Sequence record: NC_054933.1
DNA: 64,000 nt
Source: Escherichia phage teqhad
Reading direction: 5' to 3' (one strand)
Shown here: positions 3,597 to 61,139 of the stretch, in pieces
Layout of the letters: each line of letters starts with the position of its first letter
Numbering within the stretch: the first letter of the stretch is position 1
The notes under the pieces: model-generated
What the model was told of the DNA's origin: nothing
The model's input: only the letters and a program-made list of their open reading frames with translations
Databases searched by the model: none
Program-made: the position numbers and the translations under genes

Positions 3597-3791
3597 TTAT
3601 TTGAATTGTGCAATTCTTTTCTCTAGACATTCAGCATAAGATTTCATTGAGATGAACTGTGAAAGTAACAGTTCTTGCTCAACTGCACTAACTGTTAGAA
3701 ACTTTGCGCTTTCTAAAAATTTACTCAGTGCATTAATTTTGAGCATTAATTGATCGTATTCTTCTTTTACTCGTGCTTGATAACCTAACAT
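3597..3791 (-). CDS. hypothetical protein (64 aa)
   Basis: ORF in track, flanked by UUCG hairpins. Confidence 0.5.
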   Translation of the reverse strand: MLGYQARVKEEYDQLMLKINALSKFLESAKFLTVSAVEQELLLSQFISMKSYAECLEKRIAQFK

Positions 3792-3807
3792 AATTTTCCT
3801 TAATGTG

Positions 3808-3826
3808 ATAAGGGCCGAAGCCCTTA
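3808..3826 (-). other. intercistronic UUCG-tetraloop hairpin overlapping the rIIB stop
   Basis: GGGCCGAAGCCC core with no U-tract; more likely an RNA-stability or processing hairpin than a terminator. Confidence 0.45.
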
Positions 3827-36353: not shown

Positions 36354-36743
36354 TTAACGATTAAAATCAGCCGCAATTGTTTCCGCAACAATTTGTGCAG
36401 CAACAATTAGACGTTCATCTGCATTACCGCAATAATCATCTTCAAGGCGTTCACCGCATGAAGTCATAATAAATTTAGCACCGGCGTTTAGGGATTCTGT
36501 AGTATGTTTGCGCATTAATTCAATCCATTTATTACTTACTTCACGATCGATAGCTTCATAATACGCATGACGAGCAGGTGCAGATTTAATTTTGTTCTGA
36601 ATAACTTCCATTGCATTATCAGAAAGAGACAAAACCCATGCTCGACGAATTTTATTTTGGTTTTGTGGATTTGATTCAGAACGCACGTGTTTTGGCTGAA
36701 TATCTTTTACATCAACAGTATAATTCACAGTAATTTTAGTCAT
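36354..36743 (-). CDS. rpbA: RpbA-like RNA polymerase binding protein (129 aa)
   Basis: 129 aa ORF directly downstream of gene 45. Confidence 0.65.
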
Positions 36744-36995: not shown

Positions 36996-37712
36996 ATGAA
37001 TTATAAACTAATTTATGAAAAGTTAATCTCTAATGCTAAATCTCGAAAACTTGATTGCTATACTGAATCTCATCACATTATACCACGCTGTTTAAATGGC
37101 AGCGATGATGCTTCAAACTTAGTAGAGTTAACACCAGAAGAGCACTATGTAGCTCATCAACTTTTAGTAAAAATTTATCCTTCTGAACCAAAATTAGTCT
37201 ATGCTGCTAACATGATGACAGTTTCCACGAAATACGCTAAACGCAACAATAAAACTTTCGGTTGGATTCGTCGTAAACTCTGGGAAATAGAAAAGAACAA
37301 AGAATTCTCCCAGGAGACACGAAAGAAAATGTCTGATGCAGTAGCTAATAAAGCAAGACTAACTTGTCCTCATTGCGGTAAGTCTGGATTAAGCGGGAAT
37401 ATGAATCGTTGGCATTTTGATAACTGCCCAAATCACCCTAATCCTAAAGTTAGACCACCAATGTCTAAAGAACACAGAAATAATATCTCAAACGGACTTA
37501 AAGCAATCGTTCTTGAAGAAACATCCTGCGAATTCTGCGGAATGATAGGCAAGAAATGCGTTATCGCAGCGCATAGAAATTTCTGCAAGAAAAATCCAAA
37601 TGGACGCAAGAAAACTGAAAAGACTGGTACTTGCGTCCATTGTGGTAAAGTTACCACTTTCGGAAATTTATCAAGATGGCATAATGATAACTGTAAATAT
37701 AAACCTAGCTAA
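36996..37712 (+). mobile_element. free-standing HNH homing endonuclease gene (238 aa) on the opposite strand, with repeated CxxC zinc-ribbon motifs
   Basis: HNH motif ...ESHHIIPRCLNGSDDASNLVELTPEEHYVAHQ...; C-terminal repeats CPHCGKSGLSGNMNRWHFDNC and CVHCGKVTTFGNLSRWHNDNC. Confidence 0.8.
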
Positions 37713-39393
37713 TCTTAGCTAAACTAAATCTACCAACTTTTTCCATTTGAATATGCTGACCGTATTCTTGTGGGTCATGGTCTTTATGCGAAATTATGAA
37801 GAAGTTGGTATCCTTCAAACCATCTAAAATTTTAGCTACATTTTTAATACCTTCAGCATCAAATGCACCGTCATACACTTCATCAAGAAATAAACAACTT
37901 ATTTTAACACCTGAAACTTTTTCAGCAATATCACGCCAAGTAAATAAAAGAGCAATATCAATTCGTGCTTTTTCACCTTGACTGAATGAAGCATAACTAA
38001 AATCTTCACGACCACGGGATTTAATTGTCTCATTAAATTCTTCATCTAATGTAAACACATAATCCGCTTCCATTATTTTAAGATAATAATTAATCTGTTT
38101 ATTAAATAATGGAATGTACTTTTTAATAATAGCACCTTTAATACCAGAATCTTTGAGCATATCAGTCAAAATTCCTCGGTGGTATTTTTCCATTACTAAA
38201 TTAGTTTTTGTCTTAACAATTTTATCAAGTTCTTCTTGAAGCAGTGCTATTTCATCAGCATGGTCAATAAACTCAGAAGATGCTTTTTCTATAGCTGCTT
38301 TAACTTTTTTAGCTTTATCTACCGTCGTGATTAAGGATTGCTTTTTATTGCGAATATCATTTGCTAATGACTGTTGGGTTTTAATATTATCTCGGTATTC
38401 ATCAACAAGAACTTTTAAATTATCGCGATGCGTTGAAAGCTGTTCAAACGAATGCGTGCATTCAGAAACTTTATCTTTAATTTTAGAAACAACTTTATCA
38501 CCGGAACTTAATTGTGACAAACAGGTTGGACATAATCCACCTTCATGATACATATTAATGACTTTATTATACGAGTCAATTTTTGATTTAATTAAAACTG
38601 CTTCTTGACCGATTTTATTAAATGCATCAGTCGGGTCTTCGTCTAAAACAATATTAACTAATCTTTCATTAGCTTCTTCTATTTCTGATTTTAGCGTTCT
38701 AGCTTCTTTTGCCAAATCATCATACATATTTTGAAGACGAGTAAGGTTGTCACCAGACAATTTTTTCTGACGTTCAACATTATCATTATATATTTTAATT
38801 TGTTGGATAATACTATCTTTTTTAACATCAAGCACTTGGTTTTGTGAATTTAATTCACGTATTAGTGCTTTATTAAGCTTATCCATTTCAGCTAATGTTC
38901 CTACCTCAAGCAGGTCTTCCACAAGCTTTCTTCGTGCAGGGGTCGACAAACCCATGAAAGGGGTATACCCTGCTGTACCAAGGACAACAATCTGCTTGAA
39001 ACTGGCATATGACATTCCGATAAGCTGTTCAAATTCTGCTTGGAAATCTTTACTGCTGGCAGATTCATTAAGACGTGTACCGTTAACGGTGATTTCGAAA
39101 ACGTTTGGTTTTTGTCCTCTTTTGATATAGTACTTTTTCTCATCATATTCCATCCACAGTTCAACTAAAAGTTCTTTCTTATTTGTGCTGTTTATTAATT
39201 GACCTTTCTTTACATCACGAAATGGCTTGCCAAAAAGCCCAAACGTGATGGCTTCTAACATAGTAGACTTACCACCGCCATTTCGTCCAGTAATAAGAGT
39301 TTTTTGAACCTTATCTAATTGAATGTCAATAGGATTTCCACCTACTGACATTATATTTTGATACCTAACTCGGTTTAGTTTAAAATTCTTCAC
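37705..39393 (-). CDS. 46: recombination nuclease subunit gp46 (Rad50/SbcC-like, 562 aa)
   Basis: Walker A GRNGGGKST; coiled-coil middle; C-terminal signature/Walker B. Confidence 0.9.
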   Translation of the reverse strand: MKNFKLNRVRYQNIMSVGGNPIDIQLDKVQKTLITGRNGGGKSTMLEAITFGLFGKPFRDVKKGQLINSTNKKELLVELWMEYDEKKYYIKRGQKPNVFEITVNGTRLNESASSKDFQAEFEQLIGMSYASFKQIVVLGTAGYTPFMGLSTPARRKLVEDLLEVGTLAEMDKLNKALIRELNSQNQVLDVKKDSIIQQIKIYNDNVERQKKLSGDNLTRLQNMYDDLAKEARTLKSEIEEANERLVNIVLDEDPTDAFNKIGQEAVLIKSKIDSYNKVINMYHEGGLCPTCLSQLSSGDKVVSKIKDKVSECTHSFEQLSTHRDNLKVLVDEYRDNIKTQQSLANDIRNKKQSLITTVDKAKKVKAAIEKASSEFIDHADEIALLQEELDKIVKTKTNLVMEKYHRGILTDMLKDSGIKGAIIKKYIPLFNKQINYYLKIMEADYVFTLDEEFNETIKSRGREDFSYASFSQGEKARIDIALLFTWRDIAEKVSGVKISCLFLDEVYDGAFDAEGIKNVAKILDGLKDTNFFIISHKDHDPQEYGQHIQMEKVGRFSLAKIS

Positions 39394-39840: not shown

Positions 39841-40856
39841 TGTGTTGCCTCTACATATAACTGATTTGCATATTGAATAAGTGCTTCACGGTCAGAATCA
39901 GTGATGTCTGGAATTGCATTAATGTATTCTTCCATCAACGTCTGAAGAGATTGAACTTCAACTTCTTCACTGTCATCTGACTCGACAGAGTTATCAATCT
40001 TTGACACAACTCGTAATGAATGCACAACTTTTTCTAGTTCAGATTCGAACTTCGTCAGATTTTTGTCTACTTCAGTTACTATAACACGTACTGATAGATT
40101 TGTAAAATCTTTATAGTCAATTTTTCCTTTAAACGGATAATGAATTCTACGATGCCAGGTAGTATTGTTTGGAATAAATTCCATTCGTTCTGTTTCTGTA
40201 TCAAACATCCAGAACCCACGAGGGTCATTCTCGTCACCTGCTGTTAGTGTCCATGGTGTCCCAATATATCTGACGTTAGCAGCCTCAGAGATAGTATGGA
40301 AGTGACCAGACCACACCTCTTTATAAGTCTTAAGGAAATCAGGTTCAAGACCGTGAGATTTCATTCCTTTATAAAAATAAAATCCATTCAGTTCCCAGTG
40401 ACCAACACAAAAAGAAGCAGATGAAGTTTTGATGTGTTCAAGAATTTCACCAGTATTTTCTTCGCACATCCAAGGAATCAAATCAATCAAACACCCGTCA
40501 AAATCTACTGTAGTAGGCTTATCATACACTTTAACATTATGATATTTAGCCAAAAGCTCAGTAGAGGCATTTGGATGCATTACATTTTTGTAGTGGAGAT
40601 CGTGATTTCCTACAATAGTATGTAATGTGATTCCAGCGTCATCAAGCATTTGAACTATTTCACGGGCAAACTCCATAGTTTTATGCGTGATTGCTTTTCG
40701 CACATCAAAAATATCACCATATTGAATCCATACAGTAATTCCATTTTTCTTAGAATATTCTATCGCTTGCTTAATTCCATCAATTTGAATACCGCGAATC
40801 CACTCATCATCAGCTTTAACGCCTAAATGCCAATCACCCAAGTTTAGTATTTTCAT
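39837..40856 (-). CDS. 47: recombination nuclease subunit gp47 (Mre11/SbcD-like, 339 aa)
   Basis: Phosphoesterase motifs (GDWHLG, GNHD); 339 aa. Confidence 0.9.
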   Translation of the reverse strand: MKILNLGDWHLGVKADDEWIRGIQIDGIKQAIEYSKKNGITVWIQYGDIFDVRKAITHKTMEFAREIVQMLDDAGITLHTIVGNHDLHYKNVMHPNASTELLAKYHNVKVYDKPTTVDFDGCLIDLIPWMCEENTGEILEHIKTSSASFCVGHWELNGFYFYKGMKSHGLEPDFLKTYKEVWSGHFHTISEAANVRYIGTPWTLTAGDENDPRGFWMFDTETERMEFIPNNTTWHRRIHYPFKGKIDYKDFTNLSVRVIVTEVDKNLTKFESELEKVVHSLRVVSKIDNSVESDDSEEVEVQSLQTLMEEYINAIPDITDSDREALIQYANQLYVEATQ

Positions 40857-41457
40857 GGTGTCTTTTCCATCCTAATTTAGCTGCTTTTGAAACCAGTTCT
40901 TTAATTTTTCCTTTTGTCCATTCAGGACCAGGAGGTTCATGACATAACATTTGCTTAACTCCGTTATTATACCATTTTTTACCTTTATTATGTGATGAAG
41001 CTTTAAATTTATTTGACCTTCCTTTTACATAACCTTCTGGAATATAAGGCAAAAAGGCAGATTTTCCTGTTAATGGATCATGTGAATGTATATTTCCTTT
41101 ACAATTATGAGAACCATATAATGGATGATTTTGTCCTTTATTATCTCTTCCAAATGAACCTTTTGGAGCAGCATATGACATATTAAAGAATAATGGATTT
41201 TTAACTGCATCATGCAATCGTTGATAATATAACTCGCATTTAATAGCTTCTTCACGCGTATCAAATTCAGCTAAAATGCATGAATCAAATAAGTGAGGAT
41301 TATCTGAAAGCTCTTTATTATAAATTTTCTTATACTTTTTAGATAAAACTGAACCATGATATCCAGCTAAATGCCTATCTAAAGACGTAGATCCAATATA
41401 AAAAGGAGGAAGTTTATCTCCACTATATATTGTTAAATAAGTTATATATTTTTTCAT
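40834..41457 (-). mobile_element. free-standing GIY-YIG (Seg-like) homing endonuclease gene (207 aa)
   Basis: YLTIYSGDKLPPFYIGST (GIY...YIG spacing), conserved R and E, and ...FDSCILAEF... which parallels I-TevI ...FECSILEE...; basic C-terminal DNA-binding region. Confidence 0.7.
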
Positions 41458-46233: not shown

Positions 46234-46557
46234 TTAATCTTCTATGATATCTCTATCATATCCAAGTGAAATGAGAGTTTCTTTGAAGTGTTTAATGTTC
46301 TTTTGTCTAGAATCATTAATGAAAATGACTGGATAACGAATGTTAAGAGATGTGAATCCAGCGCGTTTAGCAAGAGATACAATCAGAGGACGATCATACT
46401 CAATCTTACCGTTATTTGTAAGAACTTTATAGAAAGTAAAAGGAGCATTGAGCTCCTTTAGAAGTTTTGTAACTGATTGACATCCAGGACAACGACCTAC
46501 TTCATCTGGAATTCCATAGACTTCAATCTTATTCTTTAAGTTCGAGTTTTGTTCCAC
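46234..46557 (-). CDS. glutaredoxin-like protein (CPGC motif); start codon uncertain, possibly GTG
   Basis: ...KIEVYGIPDEVGRCPGCQSVTKLLKELNAPFTFYKV...; no in-frame ATG before the redox motif. Confidence 0.45.
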   Translation of the reverse strand: MEQNSNLKNKIEVYGIPDEVGRCPGCQSVTKLLKELNAPFTFYKVLTNNGKIEYDRPLIVSLAKRAGFTSLNIRYPVIFINDSRQKNIKHFKETLISLGYDRDIIED

Positions 46558-46840
46558 GAGAAATAATTCCTTGGTAAGCCCAATAAGGAGGATTAACAGA
46601 ATCCTCACCAGAGTTTTCTTCAGGAAAATAAACCTGGATAACAAATCCAGACGCATCAAAGGTAAAATAAACCGTAGGCAATTCACCTAACAATTCGGCA
46701 CGAGCATTAATTTCTTCTAGATCTCGTTCACGTCCAGCCCAAAAACTAGGATTTAGATTACATTCGTAAAAATAATAGTCATTACCGAACATATCAAAAC
46801 CCTTCCAACTCTCTACCACGTACCGCTCAAAACTAATCAT
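46529..46840 (-). CDS. hypothetical acidic protein (103 aa)
   Basis: Track ORF. Confidence 0.45.
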   Translation of the reverse strand: MISFERYVVESWKGFDMFGNDYYFYECNLNPSFWAGRERDLEEINARAELLGELPTVYFTFDASGFVIQVYFPEENSGEDSVNPPYWAYQGIISRGTKLELKE

Positions 46841-46842
46841 AA

Positions 46843-47058
46843 TTAAGCCTTTTTATCAAGAACAGAATTCAGTTTGTTAGTAATTTTATCCAGACGCTCA
46901 TTAAACTCACTAGAAGATAAGCCCTTTTCTGGAGAAATTAAACTAATAACGAAAAATATAGCAATAAAAGGAATAAGGAAAATAGCTCCAACTGCCATAA
47001 ACAGAAAGAATGTTACAGTTGTAAGAAAATCAGCTAAACCTTTACGAAATTTATACAT
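46843..47058 (-). CDS. small membrane protein (71 aa)
   Basis: Hydrophobic N-terminal half. Confidence 0.5.
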   Translation of the reverse strand: MYKFRKGLADFLTTVTFFLFMAVGAIFLIPFIAIFFVISLISPEKGLSSSEFNERLDKITNKLNSVLDKKA

Positions 47059-47173
47059 ATTTTACCCTTAATTAATTAACAAAGCATTGATAAGTACTAA
47101 ACTATATTGGGAATAAAATTCTGGACCAAAATGAAAAATCATATCATTTATAGTATCCATAATGCAATTCAAT

Positions 47174-47644
47174 TTAATCATGTTTCCACACCCCATCGGT
47201 ATTTGACCAAAGTCGCTGATTATCTGATCCTCGCCACAGCTTTTTAGTCGGAAGATTTTTCTCATACTTCCCATCAATAATAACATCAACATATTTAAGC
47301 ATTTCTAGTTGTTTAATATCTTCAAACTTATATCCTGTCCACAACCAAATGCTTTTATTGGGATAAAGATTTTTAATAGTTTGAACCACAGAGTGAATCA
47401 CGTCTCTGTTATCAGGATAAAGAGGGTCACCTCCGGTTATAGTCAATCCTTCTATATAATCATTATTCAAACATTCAATTAATTGTTCTAGTGTTTCACC
47501 AGTGAATGGAACACCATTTCTAGCATTCCATGTTGATTTATTATAACACCCTTCGCATTTATGCAAACAACCTGTAACGAAAAGAACGACCCTGCATCCA
47601 GGGCCATTCACAAAATCACAGGGATAAAATCTATCGTAATTCAT
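47174..47644 (-). CDS. nrdG: anaerobic ribonucleotide reductase activating protein NrdG (radical SAM, 156 aa)
   Basis: Cys cluster CLHKCEGCYN; 156 aa; 4-nt overlap with nrdD. Confidence 0.85.
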   Translation of the reverse strand: MNYDRFYPCDFVNGPGCRVVLFVTGCLHKCEGCYNKSTWNARNGVPFTGETLEQLIECLNNDYIEGLTITGGDPLYPDNRDVIHSVVQTIKNLYPNKSIWLWTGYKFEDIKQLEMLKYVDVIIDGKYEKNLPTKKLWRGSDNQRLWSNTDGVWKHD

Positions 47645-49458
47645 TGGTGTTTAACCCTATGCATGATTTCTTTATTTTTACCGAGATTAAATCCGCGTTC
47701 GTTCGGATTTCCCAAATAGCCGCATGTTCTTCTTATTGTGTTCATCTTTTTAGGATCAGTTTCTCCACAAATAGAACAAACAAATCCGTTTTCAGTAGGA
47801 GTCATTTCATGGGTACTTCCGCATGTAAAACACTTATCTACTGGCATATTAACACCAAAATAATCTAAATGCTGTGCAGCATAATCCCACACGGCCTCAA
47901 GACCTTTTAAGTTATTTTTCATATCAGGAAGTTCAACATAAGAAATGTGACCGCCGGTCGCAATGAAATGATACGGCGCTTCACGAGAAATCTTTTCAAA
48001 CGGAGTAATATTTTCTTCTACTGAAACATGGAAACTGTTGGTGTACCAACCTTTATCGGTAACATCCTTTACACTTCCATATTTTTCGGTATCAAGTTTA
48101 CAGAAGCGATAACAAAGGTTTTCAGCAGGAGTAGAATACAAGCTAAAAGCAAAACCAGTTCTTTCAGTCCACTGCTTAAGACGAGCATTCATTTTAGTTA
48201 AAATTTCTTGTCCAATATCACGACCGACAAGAATATTCAATTCGTGAATACCAATGTATCCTAAGGACACTGAACTTCTACCGTTTTTAAATAACTCAAT
48301 TATATCATCATCAGGTTTAAGACGAACCCCGAATGCACCTTCTTGGTAAAGAATAGGAGCAACAGTCGCTTTAACTCCTTTTAAGGAACTAATTCTACAC
48401 ATCAAAGCTTCAAAACATAAATCCATTCGCTCATTGAACAATTCGATAAATTTCTGTTCATTGAACTGTGTTCCAATATAAGAATCTAACGCGATACGAG
48501 GAAGATTCAGTGTTACAACACCGAGATTATTACGTCCATCAAGAATTTCATTACCAGTCGAATCTTTCCATACGCTCAAGAAACTACGGCAGCCCATTGG
48601 AGAAACAGGAACAGATGAACCAGTGATATCTTTATTGTTCTTAGCTGAAATAATATCAGGATACATTCTTTTGCTTGCGCACTCTAGAGCAAGCTGTTTA
48701 ATATCATAGTTCGGATCGTCTTTATAAAGATTAACACCTTCTTCAACAAACATAACAAGCTTAGGGAAAATAGGAGTTATCCCATCACGACCAAGACCTT
48801 TAATACGATTTTTCAGAATTGCTTTCTGAATCATTCGTTCAGTCCAGTCAGTTCCTGTACCAAATGTAATTGTTACAAAAGGTGTTTGTCCGTTTGAACT
48901 AAAGAGAGTATTTACTTCATATTCATAAGCTTGGAATGCATCGTATACATCTTTTTCTGTTTTAGATTGAGCATAATTCAACGCATCAGCGATTTGCCAT
49001 TTTTCTGCATCCTCAATATGTTTTGCATAGGTGCGTTTAACATAAGGAGAAAGTACTTTATCTACATTCGCAAAAGTCGTTCCGCCGTATTGGTGAGAAG
49101 CAACTTGCGCAGTAATTTGCGCCATAATTGCAGTAGCAACTCCAATTGATTTAGGAGTTTCAATCTGTGCATTACCTAGCTTAAATCCGTTCTCAAGCAT
49201 TCCTTTTAAATCTACTAAACAACAATTAGTAAATGGAAGAGCAGGGGAATAATCAATATCGTGGAAATGGATAATTCCGCTTTCATGCGCTTTCATAATA
49301 AAAGACGGGACCATATTTTTGGCAATGTGTTTAGACACAATACCAGCCATAAGGTCCCGTTGAGTTGGAAAAACACGAGAATCTTTATTAGCATTCTCGT
49401 TCAAAAGGTCTTTATTAGTTTTATGAATCAATCCTTCAATTTCTTTTTCAATTGTCAT
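47641..49458 (-). CDS. nrdD: anaerobic ribonucleotide reductase NrdD, uninterrupted (605 aa)
   Basis: C-terminal glycyl-radical region ...TCGYLGNP... and Zn site CxxC...CxxC; continuous ORF. Confidence 0.92.
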   Translation of the reverse strand: MTIEKEIEGLIHKTNKDLLNENANKDSRVFPTQRDLMAGIVSKHIAKNMVPSFIMKAHESGIIHFHDIDYSPALPFTNCCLVDLKGMLENGFKLGNAQIETPKSIGVATAIMAQITAQVASHQYGGTTFANVDKVLSPYVKRTYAKHIEDAEKWQIADALNYAQSKTEKDVYDAFQAYEYEVNTLFSSNGQTPFVTITFGTGTDWTERMIQKAILKNRIKGLGRDGITPIFPKLVMFVEEGVNLYKDDPNYDIKQLALECASKRMYPDIISAKNNKDITGSSVPVSPMGCRSFLSVWKDSTGNEILDGRNNLGVVTLNLPRIALDSYIGTQFNEQKFIELFNERMDLCFEALMCRISSLKGVKATVAPILYQEGAFGVRLKPDDDIIELFKNGRSSVSLGYIGIHELNILVGRDIGQEILTKMNARLKQWTERTGFAFSLYSTPAENLCYRFCKLDTEKYGSVKDVTDKGWYTNSFHVSVEENITPFEKISREAPYHFIATGGHISYVELPDMKNNLKGLEAVWDYAAQHLDYFGVNMPVDKCFTCGSTHEMTPTENGFVCSICGETDPKKMNTIRRTCGYLGNPNERGFNLGKNKEIMHRVKHQ

Positions 49459-49928
49459 TTTAAACTCTTTCTAAGCTGCTTCTTGAATGAAGCTATTAAT
49501 TGTGTTTTGGTGTCAGATTCATTATATTCAAATCCTCTTTGAAGCATCTCGGCCATCATTTCCTCTTTTCCTAAACGAGAAAATTCCTTTGATTTATCTC
49601 CAACGAAGTTAGGGTGAATATTATTTTGGGTGTAATCGGATTTTAAATAAGTAAGTAAATTTTCTAACCATTCAAGATAATCAACACCTTGTCCCTTTAA
49701 GCCAGAACGATTAAATTTATGCTTCATTTGACCTTCTGCGGCATTGCAGAGATTACAAAGCAATCCACGTACCTTTCCTGCTTTTGGTCCATTTAATTCA
49801 TGGTCATGGTCGAGGTGATTAGCTTGAACGTCAGGATTTAGTTCTCGTTGGCAAATTAAGCATTTACCATTTTGTGCATCATAAAATTTCTGTTTTTCTT
49901 CTTTGTATAATTTGCCAGTCAATAACAT
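49455..49928 (-). CDS. 49: endonuclease VII gp49 (Holliday junction resolvase, 157 aa)
   Basis: 157 aa, CxxC...H-N-H-type motifs (DHDHELNGP). Confidence 0.85.
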   Translation of the reverse strand: MLLTGKLYKEEKQKFYDAQNGKCLICQRELNPDVQANHLDHDHELNGPKAGKVRGLLCNLCNAAEGQMKHKFNRSGLKGQGVDYLEWLENLLTYLKSDYTQNNIHPNFVGDKSKEFSRLGKEEMMAEMLQRGFEYNESDTKTQLIASFKKQLRKSLK

Positions 49929-49970
49929 AATAAAACCCTTACCTTAAATAGATAAGGGTATTTATTATTT

Positions 49971-50456
49971 TCAAGTATTGTAAAACATTTGATTCAATCG
50001 CTTATATTGCCGAATCTTTTGGTCAGAAAAAGAAATTTGGGTTTCAAGCCATTCAATATATTCTGCCGCAGCTTGCATCAAATTTCCTTCATAGCCATCG
50101 TTATTTTCTTGTGCAGCTAATTTAGCTAATGCGTATGAAATACGTTCACCTTGAAAATCAGCTTTAGGCTTCTGAACAACTTGATTAGTTCTCTCTACAA
50201 CTTCTTCAATTTCGCCATTTTCTACTGATTCAGTATTCCACAAGCACCAATACGTAATTGGCTTATCGTAGATGTTAATAATCTTTCCATCAGAAAGTTC
50301 AATTTCAATAATTCCAGTGTCAGGCTCTATATCATCTTCACATTCTTTTGCAAGTTCACGAACTTTAAAGACAGTACCTGCACTAAGTTCCGGCCAGTAA
50401 TTACACAGCCCTGTATCAGCACGATTAATTCTAAACCACTTATCTACTGTAATCAT
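49971..50456 (-). CDS. pin: Pin-like protein (161 aa)
   Basis: Size and position downstream of gene 49, as T4 pin; internal ATG chosen. Confidence 0.5.
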   Translation of the reverse strand: MITVDKWFRINRADTGLCNYWPELSAGTVFKVRELAKECEDDIEPDTGIIEIELSDGKIINIYDKPITYWCLWNTESVENGEIEEVVERTNQVVQKPKADFQGERISYALAKLAAQENNDGYEGNLMQAAAEYIEWLETQISFSDQKIRQYKRLNQMFYNT

Positions 50457-50579
50457 GTCCCATCTCCATATCAATTAAGTCATTTATCGTTGGTTCATTA
50501 TATACTGTTTCTTCATCAGTGTAAACCGGTTCTTCCGGCTCTGGCTCTACAGTTTCCCATCTAGCCGCCCACCAAGGTT

Positions 50580-58582: not shown

Positions 58583-59596
58583 TCATTTATAATAACTTCG
58601 GTGGTTTTCAAGATAGACCTTCTCAAGGAAGTCATCCCAGAAACCCATGTCTACTTTTTGCTGCATACCGTTCTTAGAAGCTTCAGTAGATGCTGCTTCT
58701 ACTTGATCGACCACATCTTCCAAAAACTTTTGAACCGTTTTAAATGGATGTTTACCCAACTTCACGTCGAGAATAAATGGAGCGTCTTGAAGTGGATAAA
58801 CCAAGTCACCAGTTTTGTAAATTTCCAATAGTTGAAGTCCACCACGACAAGCATGGCTCAGAGCTTTCCAGTCAATGCCTTCATTGGCTTCGGCCTTTCG
58901 AGCGCGTTCACCATATTCAGCATCTAATTTGTTCAGTGACTGCTTAAGCTCAATAAGAGAAAGCGTTGTCTGATATTTACGACCCAGCACTGTATAGAAC
59001 GTTTGTGGACCTGTTTTCTCATGATTATGGAACACCCATTCACAGAATTCGTTTTCTGGAAGACGATGCTTAATATCTTCAACTTTAGTACGACGCTGCT
59101 TAATGGAACCGTCTTCTTGGTAATCAACCCATTGCTCAGGGATTTGATTAACTACTTTCAATACATCACGTAATGCAGCCAAACGAGAACCCTTGACGCC
59201 GTATTTAGAAGCTTGCTTGCGGACATATCCTAAATAGGATTTCATGTTAGTCGTATAAAAACGAGAACGGTTGTCTTGAATAAACTTCCACACATCAGGC
59301 AAATCAGATTTAACCACTAGTTCAGGTGGAGTGTGAAGCATATCCAATGCTACAGTTTCACCATCTGCTGCTAATTTAAAGAAATATTTAAGACTGTATA
59401 GTTCATGGTCAATATCATCTTTAGTGTTTTTAGATGATGTGTTGTTAGTGTTTTTACTCATGTGCTCTTTGACATTTCCGACAAGAATATCGCGAGCAGG
59501 AGGAACAAAGATTTCTTTAAAATCTACATCAGATTCTGGGGTAGAAGTTCCATAAAGATGACTACCAAAATAGCTTTTCATTACTGTTTTCATCAT
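58583..59596 (-). CDS. predicted nucleotidyltransferase (Pol-beta superfamily, 337 aa)
   Basis: GS...DxD motif: FGSHLYGTSTPESDVDFKEIF. Confidence 0.6.
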   Translation of the reverse strand: MMKTVMKSYFGSHLYGTSTPESDVDFKEIFVPPARDILVGNVKEHMSKNTNNTSSKNTKDDIDHELYSLKYFFKLAADGETVALDMLHTPPELVVKSDLPDVWKFIQDNRSRFYTTNMKSYLGYVRKQASKYGVKGSRLAALRDVLKVVNQIPEQWVDYQEDGSIKQRRTKVEDIKHRLPENEFCEWVFHNHEKTGPQTFYTVLGRKYQTTLSLIELKQSLNKLDAEYGERARKAEANEGIDWKALSHACRGGLQLLEIYKTGDLVYPLQDAPFILDVKLGKHPFKTVQKFLEDVVDQVEAASTEASKNGMQQKVDMGFWDDFLEKVYLENHRSYYK

Positions 59597-60054
59597 TCAG
59601 CCTTATATTCAATAACAGGACATACTTTAGCTTTACGAGCTTTTAAAAATTCAACGATAATCGATTTCTTGGGTTGAATAGGAGGTAAACCTTTATTTTT
59701 CCTATCAATGTTTTCTACGTGTAAAGCATAATCCTTTTTCCATTTATAATCTTTATATTTTTCACGCAAATGTACAGGAATAACAAATGAACCAATAATA
59801 AGTAAAACAACCAAAAGCGCAAGTATAAATGCTGATGGAAGCAAAGTCCATAAACTACCAAAAATAAGCCAACGCTGTAAACTTTCTGCACAAATAATTG
59901 TTAGCCCTACGAGTATAGCACATCCAAAAATAGAAACGAAAAATGTAGGAATGGCAATAGACCAAAAATATGCGCATAGTGTCTTAGGTCGTTGCCATTC
60001 ATCGTTAAACAATTTGAATAATTTATAATGCCAAGAGTTTTCATTAATAATCAT
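59593..60054 (-). CDS. membrane protein (153 aa)
   Basis: Three hydrophobic segments; AAAGGA SD. Confidence 0.5.
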   Translation of the reverse strand: MIINENSWHYKLFKLFNDEWQRPKTLCAYFWSIAIPTFFVSIFGCAILVGLTIICAESLQRWLIFGSLWTLLPSAFILALLVVLLIIGSFVIPVHLREKYKDYKWKKDYALHVENIDRKNKGLPPIQPKKSIIVEFLKARKAKVCPVIEYKAE

Positions 60055-60056
60055 AA

Positions 60057-60578
60057 TTATCCTTTCATTGAAGGTGTAACAGTTGTTAAATACTTAATCA
60101 TAGCCTCAGCTTCTGATTTTGATAGTGAAATTTCTTCACCGTTTTGGCGAATAGAAACAAAATCTGGATGACGATCACCACCAGCTTTTAAAACACACAT
60201 ATAAGTATCAGCTTCGCCTTCAATATTTGAAATGATTGAAGCAGTTCCACACGAATGTGGTTTTTGATAAATCAATACAGCTTTTCTTCCACCATTTGAC
60301 TGTTCATAGGCTTTTAATACATCAAACAAATCAGTTCTTTTATCAATAGCTAAGATGTTATTTTCATCTTCAATATTAAATCCTTCGGATACTTCATAAA
60401 GAGTTACCCATAAATCACCGATGTCAATAACAGCATTTACTTTTCCACGGCTTTCAAGAGTATGACAAATTTTCTTGATTTCGTCATAACTCATTTTAAT
60501 AATATCATCTCCTTGACTAAGGAAGATGTCATTTTTAAATTCAACACGAATTAAACCACTTCCACTTGAAATAAACAT
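60057..60578 (-). CDS. hypothetical protein (173 aa), tandem paralog 1 of 2
   Basis: ...GFNIEDENN... and ...SKSEAEAMIKYLTTVTPSM align with the next ORF. Confidence 0.5.
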   Translation of the reverse strand: MFISSGSGLIRVEFKNDIFLSQGDDIIKMSYDEIKKICHTLESRGKVNAVIDIGDLWVTLYEVSEGFNIEDENNILAIDKRTDLFDVLKAYEQSNGGRKAVLIYQKPHSCGTASIISNIEGEADTYMCVLKAGGDRHPDFVSIRQNGEEISLSKSEAEAMIKYLTTVTPSMKG

Positions 60579-60584
60579 ATTTCC

Positions 60585-61139
60585 TCACTTTGAAATCATA
60601 ATTGGAATGACAGAATCAAGATAAGTCTTTAGCGCAATAGCTTCGTCTTTGGTAAATGTGACAATATGTGCTCGAAAATCGTCAATTTGACGAATAGATA
60701 CTACATCTCCCTCTTCATAGCATTTTGACACATTTAAAATAGTTTCATCATTCTGATTGCAAGCGTTAGTAATAATAGCATTGCAATTTTTAAACCATTT
60801 TAAACTGTGTTTTCTTTCATTAGAATAATAAAAATATTTAATCTTATCTATAAAACTATCCCAATGGATAACTGATAAGCATATTGACTCGCTTTCAATA
60901 TTAAATCCTGGGCATGAAGAATAAAAATGAATTTTATGCTCATCATTAATGCTTACAATTTTATCAGTATAAGGATTTTCAATTTGGGTTAAATGAATGA
61001 TTTCACTAGGCGTAAAATATAGCATATCATCTTCTTGTGTCAAACGATACATATTATTTACTTTTTCTATAGCCAATTCACCAAAAAGTGAACTAACTTC
61101 TAATACTAATCGTTTCATATTAATCCTTTTTATTGGCAC
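60585..61139 (-). CDS. hypothetical protein (184 aa), tandem paralog 2 of 2
   Basis: ...GFNIESESI... and ...TKDEAIALKTYLDSVIPIM. Confidence 0.5.
   Translation of the reverse strand: MPIKRINMKRLVLEVSSLFGELAIEKVNNMYRLTQEDDMLYFTPSEIIHLTQIENPYTDKIVSINDEHKIHFYSSCPGFNIESESICLSVIHWDSFIDKIKYFYYSNERKHSLKWFKNCNAIITNACNQNDETILNVSKCYEEGDVVSIRQIDDFRAHIVTFTKDEAIALKTYLDSVIPIMISK

What the first reader, a model, noticed from the sequence alone, without database searches (positions are those of the whole stretch)
47174..49458. Intron-less nrdD directly abutting nrdG
nrdD is a continuous 605-aa ORF with a 4-nt overlap to nrdG. In T4, nrdD carries a group I intron and there is an HNH gene (mobD) in the neighbourhood. 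The absence of both here makes this a likely intron-minus homing target locus.
Basis: partly seen in the sequence, partly recalled or inferred. Interest (0 to 1): 0.4.

Follow-up and report, generated by a model that had tools for sequence, protein, structure and literature searches.

The report
Intron-free nrdD–nrdG operon, T4-like phage
This is the ordinary, uninterrupted anaerobic ribonucleotide reductase gene pair (nrdD–nrdG) of a T4-like coliphage; it lacks the intron and homing-endonuclease gene that T4 carries here, as do most sequenced relatives.

Summary
On the minus strand, nrdD (47641-49458, 605 aa) is one open frame, colinear residue for residue with T4 NrdD. It overlaps nrdG (47174-47644, 156 aa) by ATGA. 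No group I intron is detectable, whereas the same search finds the T4 intron at 105 bits.

- The T4 HNH gene between nrdG and nrdD is mobC, not mobD. mobD lies about 10 kb away in T4 and is also absent here.
- The "empty" state is the norm. At least 458-520 phage records share this arrangement or junction allele, including T2. Only 25 records have the intron, 32 have mobC and 32 have another HNH endonuclease gene.
- The window's counterpart of the 30-bp I-TevII site differs from the T4 exon junction at 7 silent positions. All lie in a short patch (-2 to +38) inside an otherwise about 97% identical gene. The T4-type flank is seen almost only with the intron, so it looks like a co-converted import and the window carries the native allele.

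Whether I-TevII can cut this allele is untested here. Empty intron and endonuclease sites in T-even phages are long-described biology. Verdict: real, ordinary, already known.

The parts
47641..49458 (-). nrdD, anaerobic (class III) ribonucleoside-triphosphate reductase large subunit, 605 aa, uninterrupted
   Evidence: ORF; Pfam NRDD 8e-172 and Gly_radical 1e-25; gap-free 1-605 alignment to T4 NrdD 1H78. Cys79, Cys290, Cys543/546/561/564 and Gly580 are present at the T4 positions (read from the alignment).
47174..47644 (-). nrdG, radical-SAM activase of NrdD, 156 aa
   Evidence: ORF; Pfam Fer4_12 4.5e-49 and Radical_SAM; C26xxxC30xxC33 motif in the translation; 126/156 identical to T4 NrdG, 152/156 to UFV-AREG1 NrdG.
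47641..47644 (-). ATGA stop/start overlap of nrdD and nrdG. This is the empty position where relatives carry mobC, a 279-aa HNH endonuclease gene, or segH
   Evidence: Sequence GTTAAACACCAATGAATTACGATAGA; T4, UFV-AREG1 and RB3 annotations.
47606..47644 (-). nrdG codons 1-13 (MNYDRFYPCDFVN), the stretch duplicated at the 5' end of the HNH endonuclease genes inserted here in relatives. Insertion point is after codon 7 for mobC and after codon 13 for the UFV-AREG1 type
   Evidence: Junction sequences and translations. The first 36 nt of the UFV-AREG1 endonuclease gene match the nrdG 5' end: the 21 short hits listed were 100% identical, and the run totalled 429 hit records.
48901..48930 (-). Counterpart of the 30-bp I-TevII homing site. 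The empty intron insertion point lies between 48921 and 48920. Window: GCTTATGAAT|ATGAAGTAAATACTCTCTTT; T4: GCTTATGAGT|ATGAAGTGAACACGTTATTC
   Evidence: 7 silent differences, at -2, +8, +11, +14, +15, +17, +20. The site definition is recalled from REBASE and Loizos et al. 1996.
49455..49928 (-). gene 49, endonuclease VII, 157 aa; its stop overlaps the nrdD start by ATGA
   Evidence: Pfam Endonuclease_7 and Endonuc-dimeris; sequence.
47584..47609 (-). 11-bp G+C-rich hairpin followed by a T-run, inside nrdG codons 13-21. Function unknown and possibly only a by-product of the conserved NGPGCRV coding sequence
   Evidence: Terminator-like scan: 4 sites found against 2.1 +/- 1.3 in shuffles, so weak.

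Best explanation
The locus is the native, uninvaded 49-nrdD-nrdG gene chain of a Tequatrovirus (T4-like) coliphage. nrdD encodes the glycyl-radical class III ribonucleotide reductase and nrdG its radical-SAM activase. The three genes are joined by ATGA stop/start overlaps, so they are most likely co-transcribed and translationally coupled (inferred). Both positions that hold selfish elements in T4 are empty: the group I intron with I-TevII after nrdD coding nt 538, and the mobC slot at the nrdD|nrdG junction. This is the common state of the genus. The short patches where T4 differs strongly from the window are best read as foreign sequence dragged into T4-type genomes together with the mobile elements (co-conversion). 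These patches are -2 to +38 around the intron site and nrdG nt ~1-312 next to mobC. They are not peculiarities of the window. In a mixed infection with an intron- or endonuclease-carrying relative, the locus would in principle be a recipient. Whether the endonucleases cut this particular allele is not established.
For: - Gene identity and integrity.
- No intron, with a positive control.
- Identical annotated organisation in the closest record, Escherichia phage AdolfPortmann (98.3% identity over 3.2 kb; nrdG/nrdD/endonuclease VII with the same 4-nt overlaps).
- Population counts in 50,697 phage records: the window's 40-nt exon-junction allele is in 520 records (485 at >=99%), including T2. An uninterrupted 100-nt nrdD/nrdG junction is in >=458 records. 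The nrdD intron is in 25 records, mobC in 32, and the UFV-AREG1-type HNH gene in 32.
- The T4-type exon-2 flank occurs in 24 records whose match covers only the exon-2 part of the junction query; their names largely coincide with the intron-bearing records. It spans the junction without the intron in only 3 records of 2 phages, SG1 and ESCO47.
- Differences from T4 in nrdD: none between -200 and -29; 9 between -2 and +38; none between +65 and +173.
- T4's divergent nrdG segment occurs in Escherichia/Shigella/Salmonella-named phages largely in the records that also have mobC (judged from the listed rows). Otherwise it is typical of Klebsiella T4-like phages.
Against: - A second cluster of 7 differences per 30 nt exists at nrdD coding nt ~1000-1041, so patchy divergence is not unique to the intron site.
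- Direct repeats of the nrdG 5' end flank the HNH genes in relatives. Precise loss of an endonuclease gene could therefore also produce the empty junction, and 'never invaded' cannot be separated from 'invaded and lost'.
- Co-transcription and translational coupling are inferred from the overlaps only.
Confidence: 0.9

Rival explanations
1. The window-type junction allele is an I-TevII-refractory (immune) site. The 7 silent substitutions prevent binding or cleavage, so this locus is not a homing target, and the prevalence of this allele explains why the intron is rare.
For: - 7 of 30 positions differ, all synonymous, with four at +14 to +20, around and just past the I-TevII cut position at +13/+15 (cut position from memory).
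- The T4-type flank and the intron are almost perfectly linked, and 520 intron-less records carry the window allele.
- The G-to-A at +8 and C-to-T at +11 differ from both the T4 homing site and the intron-internal pseudo-site upstream of the I-TevII ORF (the fused flanks of the ORF are reported to be cleaved, PMC3984707).
Against: - Linkage of flank and intron is expected from co-conversion alone.
- GIY-YIG phage endonucleases bind through sequence-tolerant minor-groove contacts (PMC2330249, PMC1865063).
- The -2 A of the window is also present in the intron-internal pseudo-site.
- The intron must have entered a Tequatrovirus genome at least once.
- As far as I recall, Sandegren and Sjoberg 2004 (J Biol Chem 279:22218, not held in the library) reported homing of several introns into intron-less relatives with variable efficiency.
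Confidence: 0.3
2. The locus is a secondary 'cured' site. An ancestor carried the intron and/or an endonuclease gene and lost it precisely, by reverse-transcript-like or recombinational intron loss, or by deletion between the duplicated nrdG 5' ends.
For: - The HNH genes at this junction are flanked by direct repeats of the nrdG start in relatives, which would allow precise excision.
- Two phages (SG1, ESCO47) have a T4-type flank without the intron, as expected after precise intron loss.
Against: - The window has neither the T4-type exon flank nor the endonuclease-associated nrdG 5' allele (MNYDRIYPCC...) seen in UFV-AREG1 and RB3. A loss event would be expected to leave these behind.
- The window allele is the majority allele.
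Confidence: 0.07

Closest known systems
Phage T4 nrdD (sunY)-mobC-nrdG region (NC_000866 42446-46385)
   Same: Same genes, same order and strand (49, nrdD, nrdG, 55.8). NrdD has the same length with 600/605 identical residues. nrdD nucleotides are 96.3% identical after removing the intron.
   Different: T4 has the 1033-nt group I intron with I-TevII after nrdD nt 538, and the 210-aa HNH gene mobC between nrdD and nrdG. T4 also has a foreign-looking patch in nrdG nt ~118-312 (NrdG 126/156 identical overall) and a 9-difference patch at the exon junction.
Intron-less Tequatrovirus genomes such as Escherichia phage AdolfPortmann (MZ501046), teqdroes, RB51/RB68, T2
   Same: Identical organisation, including both ATGA overlaps. 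97-98% nucleotide identity over 3.2 kb. T2 has the same 40-nt exon-junction allele.
   Different: Only scattered point differences. Nothing structural.
Phages with other endonuclease genes at the nrdD|nrdG junction: RB3 segH (AY262138; Sandegren, Nord and Sjoberg 2005) and the UFV-AREG1 279-aa HNH gene
   Same: Same flanking genes and the same intron-less nrdD junction allele.
   Different: They carry an 0.8-kb endonuclease gene at the junction, and divergent flanks (nrdG codons 1-26; in RB3 also the last ~80 nt of nrdD). The window lacks all of these.

Membership tests
Class III anaerobic ribonucleotide reductase, NrdD | Full-length match to the NRDD family plus the C-terminal glycyl-radical domain | tested here: met
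   PF13597 residues 21-604, E 8.2e-172; PF01228 residues 481-586, E 1.2e-25.
Class III anaerobic ribonucleotide reductase, NrdD | Radical glycine (T4 Gly580, RxCGY), active-site Cys79 and Cys290, and the four-Cys zinc site 543/546/561/564 | tested here: met
   Gap-free alignment to 1H78 (the T4 NrdD chain has Ala where the window has Gly580, which I recall is the G580A crystallisation mutant) shows all residues in place. Residue roles are from knowledge of the T4 structure papers, not tested here.
NrdG radical-SAM activase | CxxxCxxC 4Fe-4S/SAM motif and a family match | tested here: met
   C26LHKC30EGC33 in the translation; PF13353 E 4.5e-49 and PF04055 E 9e-08.
Group I intron in nrdD (T4 sunY intron type) | Insertion after nrdD coding nt 538 with a group I catalytic core | tested here: not met
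   No RF00028 match at E<=1 in 46500-50500 or at gathering threshold in the whole window. The T4 control scores 105 bits. The coding sequence is colinear across the junction.
Free-standing homing endonuclease gene at the nrdD|nrdG junction (mobC, segH, UFV-type HNH) | An HNH or GIY-YIG ORF between the nrdD stop and the nrdG start | tested here: not met
   The genes overlap by 4 nt. tblastn with MobC, I-TevII and the UFV endonuclease gives no hit in the locus apart from the shared 13 NrdG N-terminal residues.
I-TevII homing site (cleavable recipient allele) | Sequence match to the ~30-bp site spanning the exon junction | tested here: inconclusive
   23/30 identical; differences at -2, +8, +11, +14, +15, +17, +20. 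The tolerance of I-TevII to these changes is not known to me.
I-TevII homing site (cleavable recipient allele) | Actual double-strand cleavage by I-TevII and intron acquisition in mixed infection | not testable with these tools
   Needs an in vitro cleavage assay or phage crosses.

The most novel reading that the evidence does not exclude
The T2/window-type exon junction allele, carried by >=520 sequenced T4-like phages, is a naturally I-TevII-resistant site. The rarity of the nrdD intron (25 records) would then reflect widespread target immunity rather than lack of opportunity. The same logic would apply to the nrdG 5' alleles and the three endonuclease genes that compete for the nrdD|nrdG junction.
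Probability: 0.25. Interest if true: 0.3.

Novelty: already known. Interest (0 to 1): 0.1.

Why it matters
It matters little on its own. It is correct annotation of a standard T4-like nucleotide-metabolism operon. [quoted passage not shown] 1989; Sandegren and Sjoberg 2004; Sandegren et al. 2005; review PMC2988022, which notes that T4 is the outlier and most relatives have few endonuclease insertions).

The one mildly useful by-product is a database-wide count. It shows near-perfect linkage between each mobile element and a short divergent flank. It also shows that one 'empty' junction allele dominates, which frames a simple cleavage experiment.

Tried and rejected
- Literature: I tried to read the primary papers that would settle cleavability and the segH/mobC targets. 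These were Sandegren and Sjoberg 2004, Sandegren et al. 2005 (PMC1275590), Quirk et al. 1989 (PMC331552) and Bell-Pedersen et al. 1990 (PMC331075). None is held. Statements about them are from memory or from the reviews that cite them.
- IMG/VR scan: the exact-pattern scan for the exon-1 flank returned only 8 loci, too few for allele frequencies. I replaced it with allele-specific 40-nt megablast counts.
- Pseudo-site comparison: I compared the window site with the intron-internal pseudo-site next to the I-TevII ORF to infer tolerated positions. It is suggestive for -2 only and not decisive.
- Discarded numbers: the difference counts printed for loci L002-L012 were computed with a 2-nt offset. 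I discard them; only the printed sequences are used.
- Splice boundaries: my first boundaries were 2 nt off and gave spurious D179E/D180Y differences. They were corrected.
- Statistics: the binomial P of 5e-5 for 7/30 differences is for a pre-chosen window. A scan shows one other equally dense cluster in nrdD, so I do not lean on it.

Full report
**What is there**

The window is a stretch of a T4-like (Tequatrovirus) coliphage genome. Positions 46800-50000 are 98.3% identical to Escherichia phage AdolfPortmann and 97-98% identical to many other Tequatrovirus records.

The minus strand reads as follows:
- gene 49, endonuclease VII: 49455-49928
- nrdD: 47641-49458, 605 aa
- nrdG: 47174-47644, 156 aa
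- the 55.8 homologue: 46843-47058

Pfam matches nrdD to NRDD over its full length (E 8e-172) plus the glycyl-radical domain. It matches nrdG to Fer4_12 and Radical_SAM. The nrdD stop and nrdG start share ATGA, and so do the gene 49 stop and the nrdD start. The closest annotated record has exactly the same coordinates relative to one another.

**Is nrdD seamless?**

Yes.
- The protein aligns 1-605 to 1-605 of the T4 NrdD crystal chain 1H78 without a gap.
- Cys79, Cys290, the Cys543/546/561/564 cluster and Gly580 are all in place. The crystal chain has Ala where the window has Gly580, which I recall is the G580A crystallisation mutant.
- With the T4 intron removed at the correct boundaries (exon 1 = 538 nt, intron = 1033 nt), the two coding sequences are both 1818 nt. 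They differ at 68 positions (96.3% identity) and 5 amino acids.
- The T4 exon junction corresponds to the bond between window positions 48921 and 48920.
- Rfam finds no family at gathering threshold anywhere in the 64 kb. At E<=1 in 46500-50500 it finds no intron family, only a 27-bit ohsC_RNA match (E 0.43) that I take to be chance.
- The same permissive search on the T4 locus recovers Intron_gpI at 105 bits, E 1.7e-27.

In T4 the HNH gene lying between nrdG and nrdD is mobC. mobD lies between nrdC.11 and mobD.1, about 10 kb away (Table 1 of PMC2988022). mobD is in fact also absent from the window. Between the nrdC.11 homologue (58583-59596) and the mobD.1 homologue (60585-61139) there are two unrelated ORFs.

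**How unusual is the empty state?**

It is not unusual. Counts in 50,697 phage records:

| Feature | Records |
|---|---|
| T4 nrdD intron | 25, many of them T4 isolates |
| mobC | 32 |
| 279-aa HNH gene at the same junction (UFV-AREG1 type) | 32 |
| Window's 40-nt sequence across the intron insertion point | 520 (485 at >=99%), including T2 |
| 100-nt probe across the uninterrupted nrdD/nrdG junction, >=80% covered | 458 |

This agrees with the review statement that T4 is an outlier and most relatives carry few endonuclease insertions (PMC2988022).

**Is it a homing target?**

This is where the sequence says something more specific.
- I recalled the 30-bp I-TevII site from REBASE and Loizos et al. 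1996. It is consistent with the T4 exon sequences read here: GCTTATGAGT|ATGAAGTGAACACGTTATTC.
- The window has GCTTATGAAT|ATGAAGTAAATACTCTCTTT. That is seven differences, all synonymous, at -2, +8, +11, +14, +15, +17 and +20.
- They belong to a patch of nine differences between -2 and +38. The patch is bounded by stretches without any difference (-200 to -29, and +65 to +173).
- The T4-type flank was found in 24 records whose match covers only the exon-2 part of the junction query. Their names largely coincide with the intron-bearing records. Only two phages, SG1 and ESCO47 (3 records), have it without the intron.
- All nine intron-less relatives whose junction sequence I printed (UFV-AREG1 and six IMG/VR loci, plus AdolfPortmann and RB3) carry the window-type allele or a close variant of it.

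The most economical reading is that the window allele is the native Tequatrovirus sequence. On that reading the T4 flank is a short co-conversion tract imported with the intron. Co-conversion of flanking exons is a known feature of homing (PMC2988022).

This does not tell us whether I-TevII cuts the native allele. Four of the seven changes lie at +14 to +20, around and just past the cleavage position (+13/+15, from memory). On the other hand, these enzymes are described as sequence-tolerant minor-groove binders. The intron-internal pseudo-site also has the window's A at -2. I put the 'immune allele' rival at about 0.3. One other cluster in nrdD (coding nt ~1000-1041) is equally dense in differences, so patchiness by itself is not special.

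**The nrdD|nrdG junction**

Three different endonuclease genes occupy this junction in relatives:
- mobC (HNH) in T4
- a 279-aa HNH gene in UFV-AREG1
- segH (GIY-YIG) in RB3

For the UFV-AREG1 gene, Pfam gave no HNH-domain hit. The HNH assignment rests on PHROG homing- and HNH-endonuclease family matches and on the motif I read in its sequence.

Both HNH genes begin with a copy of the NrdG N-terminus. MobC starts MNYDRIY; the UFV type starts MNYDRFYPCDFVN. Both end in GATGAATTATGA, which regenerates the nrdG start. They therefore sit inside the first 7-13 codons of nrdG and take over its coupled start. The window shows the undisturbed version at 47606-47644.

Each element-bearing genome differs sharply from the window right next to the element:
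- UFV-AREG1 and RB3 differ in nrdG codons 1-26. They share MNYDRIYPCC where the window has MNYDRFYPCD.
- RB3 also differs in the last ~80 nt of nrdD.
- T4 differs across nrdG nt ~1-312, with 45-50% mismatches between nt 118 and 312.

Among Escherichia/Shigella/Salmonella-named phages, the T4-type nrdG segment appears largely in the records that also have mobC, judged from the listed rows. Otherwise it is typical of Klebsiella T4-like phages. This again looks like a tract that travelled with the endonuclease gene. [quoted passage not shown] It adds nothing categorically new.

**Mechanism**

Shown:
- Intact NrdD and NrdG with their catalytic motifs.
- Overlapping stop/start codons.
- Absence of the intron and of any endonuclease gene.

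Inferred:
- The three genes are co-transcribed and translationally coupled.
- NrdG generates the Gly580 radical on NrdD, so the phage can make dNTPs anaerobically (established T4 biochemistry, not tested here).
- In co-infection with an element-bearing relative the locus could be converted, provided the endonuclease accepts the native alleles.

**Verdict**

The feature is ordinary and already known. Interest is low.

Noticed in passing
window 36996-37712 (+): A 238-aa HNH/mob-like homing-endonuclease ORF (PHROG 655 E 1e-68; 37% identical to the T4 MobC N-terminal half). It lies antisense between rpbA (36354-36743, -) and gene 46 (37705-39393, -), where T4 has the small genes 45.1 and 45.2 (T4 gene order here is from memory). 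The review of T4 endonucleases lists segD as the only one transcribed against its neighbours.
   Followed up: partly
window 40834-41457 (-): A 207-aa GIY-YIG (seg-like) ORF overlapping the end of gene 47 (PHROG 10820 E 1e-94; Pfam GIY-YIG just below its cut-off). This phage therefore carries free-standing endonuclease genes elsewhere, though not at nrdD/nrdG.
   Followed up: partly
window 59593-60578 (-): mobD is absent. Between the nrdC.11 homologue (58583-59596) and the mobD.1 homologue (60585-61139) lie two other ORFs: a 153-aa ORF that looks like a membrane protein, and a 173-aa ORF.
   Followed up: partly
window 47584-47609 (-): An 11-bp G+C-rich hairpin followed by TTTTCGTT, inside nrdG codons 13-21. 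It starts exactly where the UFV-AREG1-type endonuclease gene is inserted in relatives. In UFV-AREG1 a C-G pair of the stem is replaced by T-A. It may be only a consequence of the conserved NGPGCRV coding sequence.
   Followed up: no
L001 (T4) 3598-3818, compared with window 47325-47545: The T4 nrdG middle segment is about 45-50% different from the window. Among Escherichia/Shigella/Salmonella-named phages it occurs largely in records that also carry mobC, judged from listed rows. It is 92-97% identical to nrdG of Klebsiella T4-like phages, which suggests mobC arrived with a Klebsiella-phage-like tract.
   Followed up: partly
window 46529-46840 (-): A 103-aa ORF (PHROG 2749, unknown function) between nrdH and 55.8. 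It is present in UFV-AREG1 and AdolfPortmann but has no counterpart at this position in T4.
   Followed up: no
phage records MF001354/NC_054936 (Salmonella phage SG1) and OM386662 (ESCO47): These are the only records in which the T4-type exon flank spans the junction without the intron. They are candidates either for precise intron loss or for fully I-TevII-susceptible natural sites.
   Followed up: no
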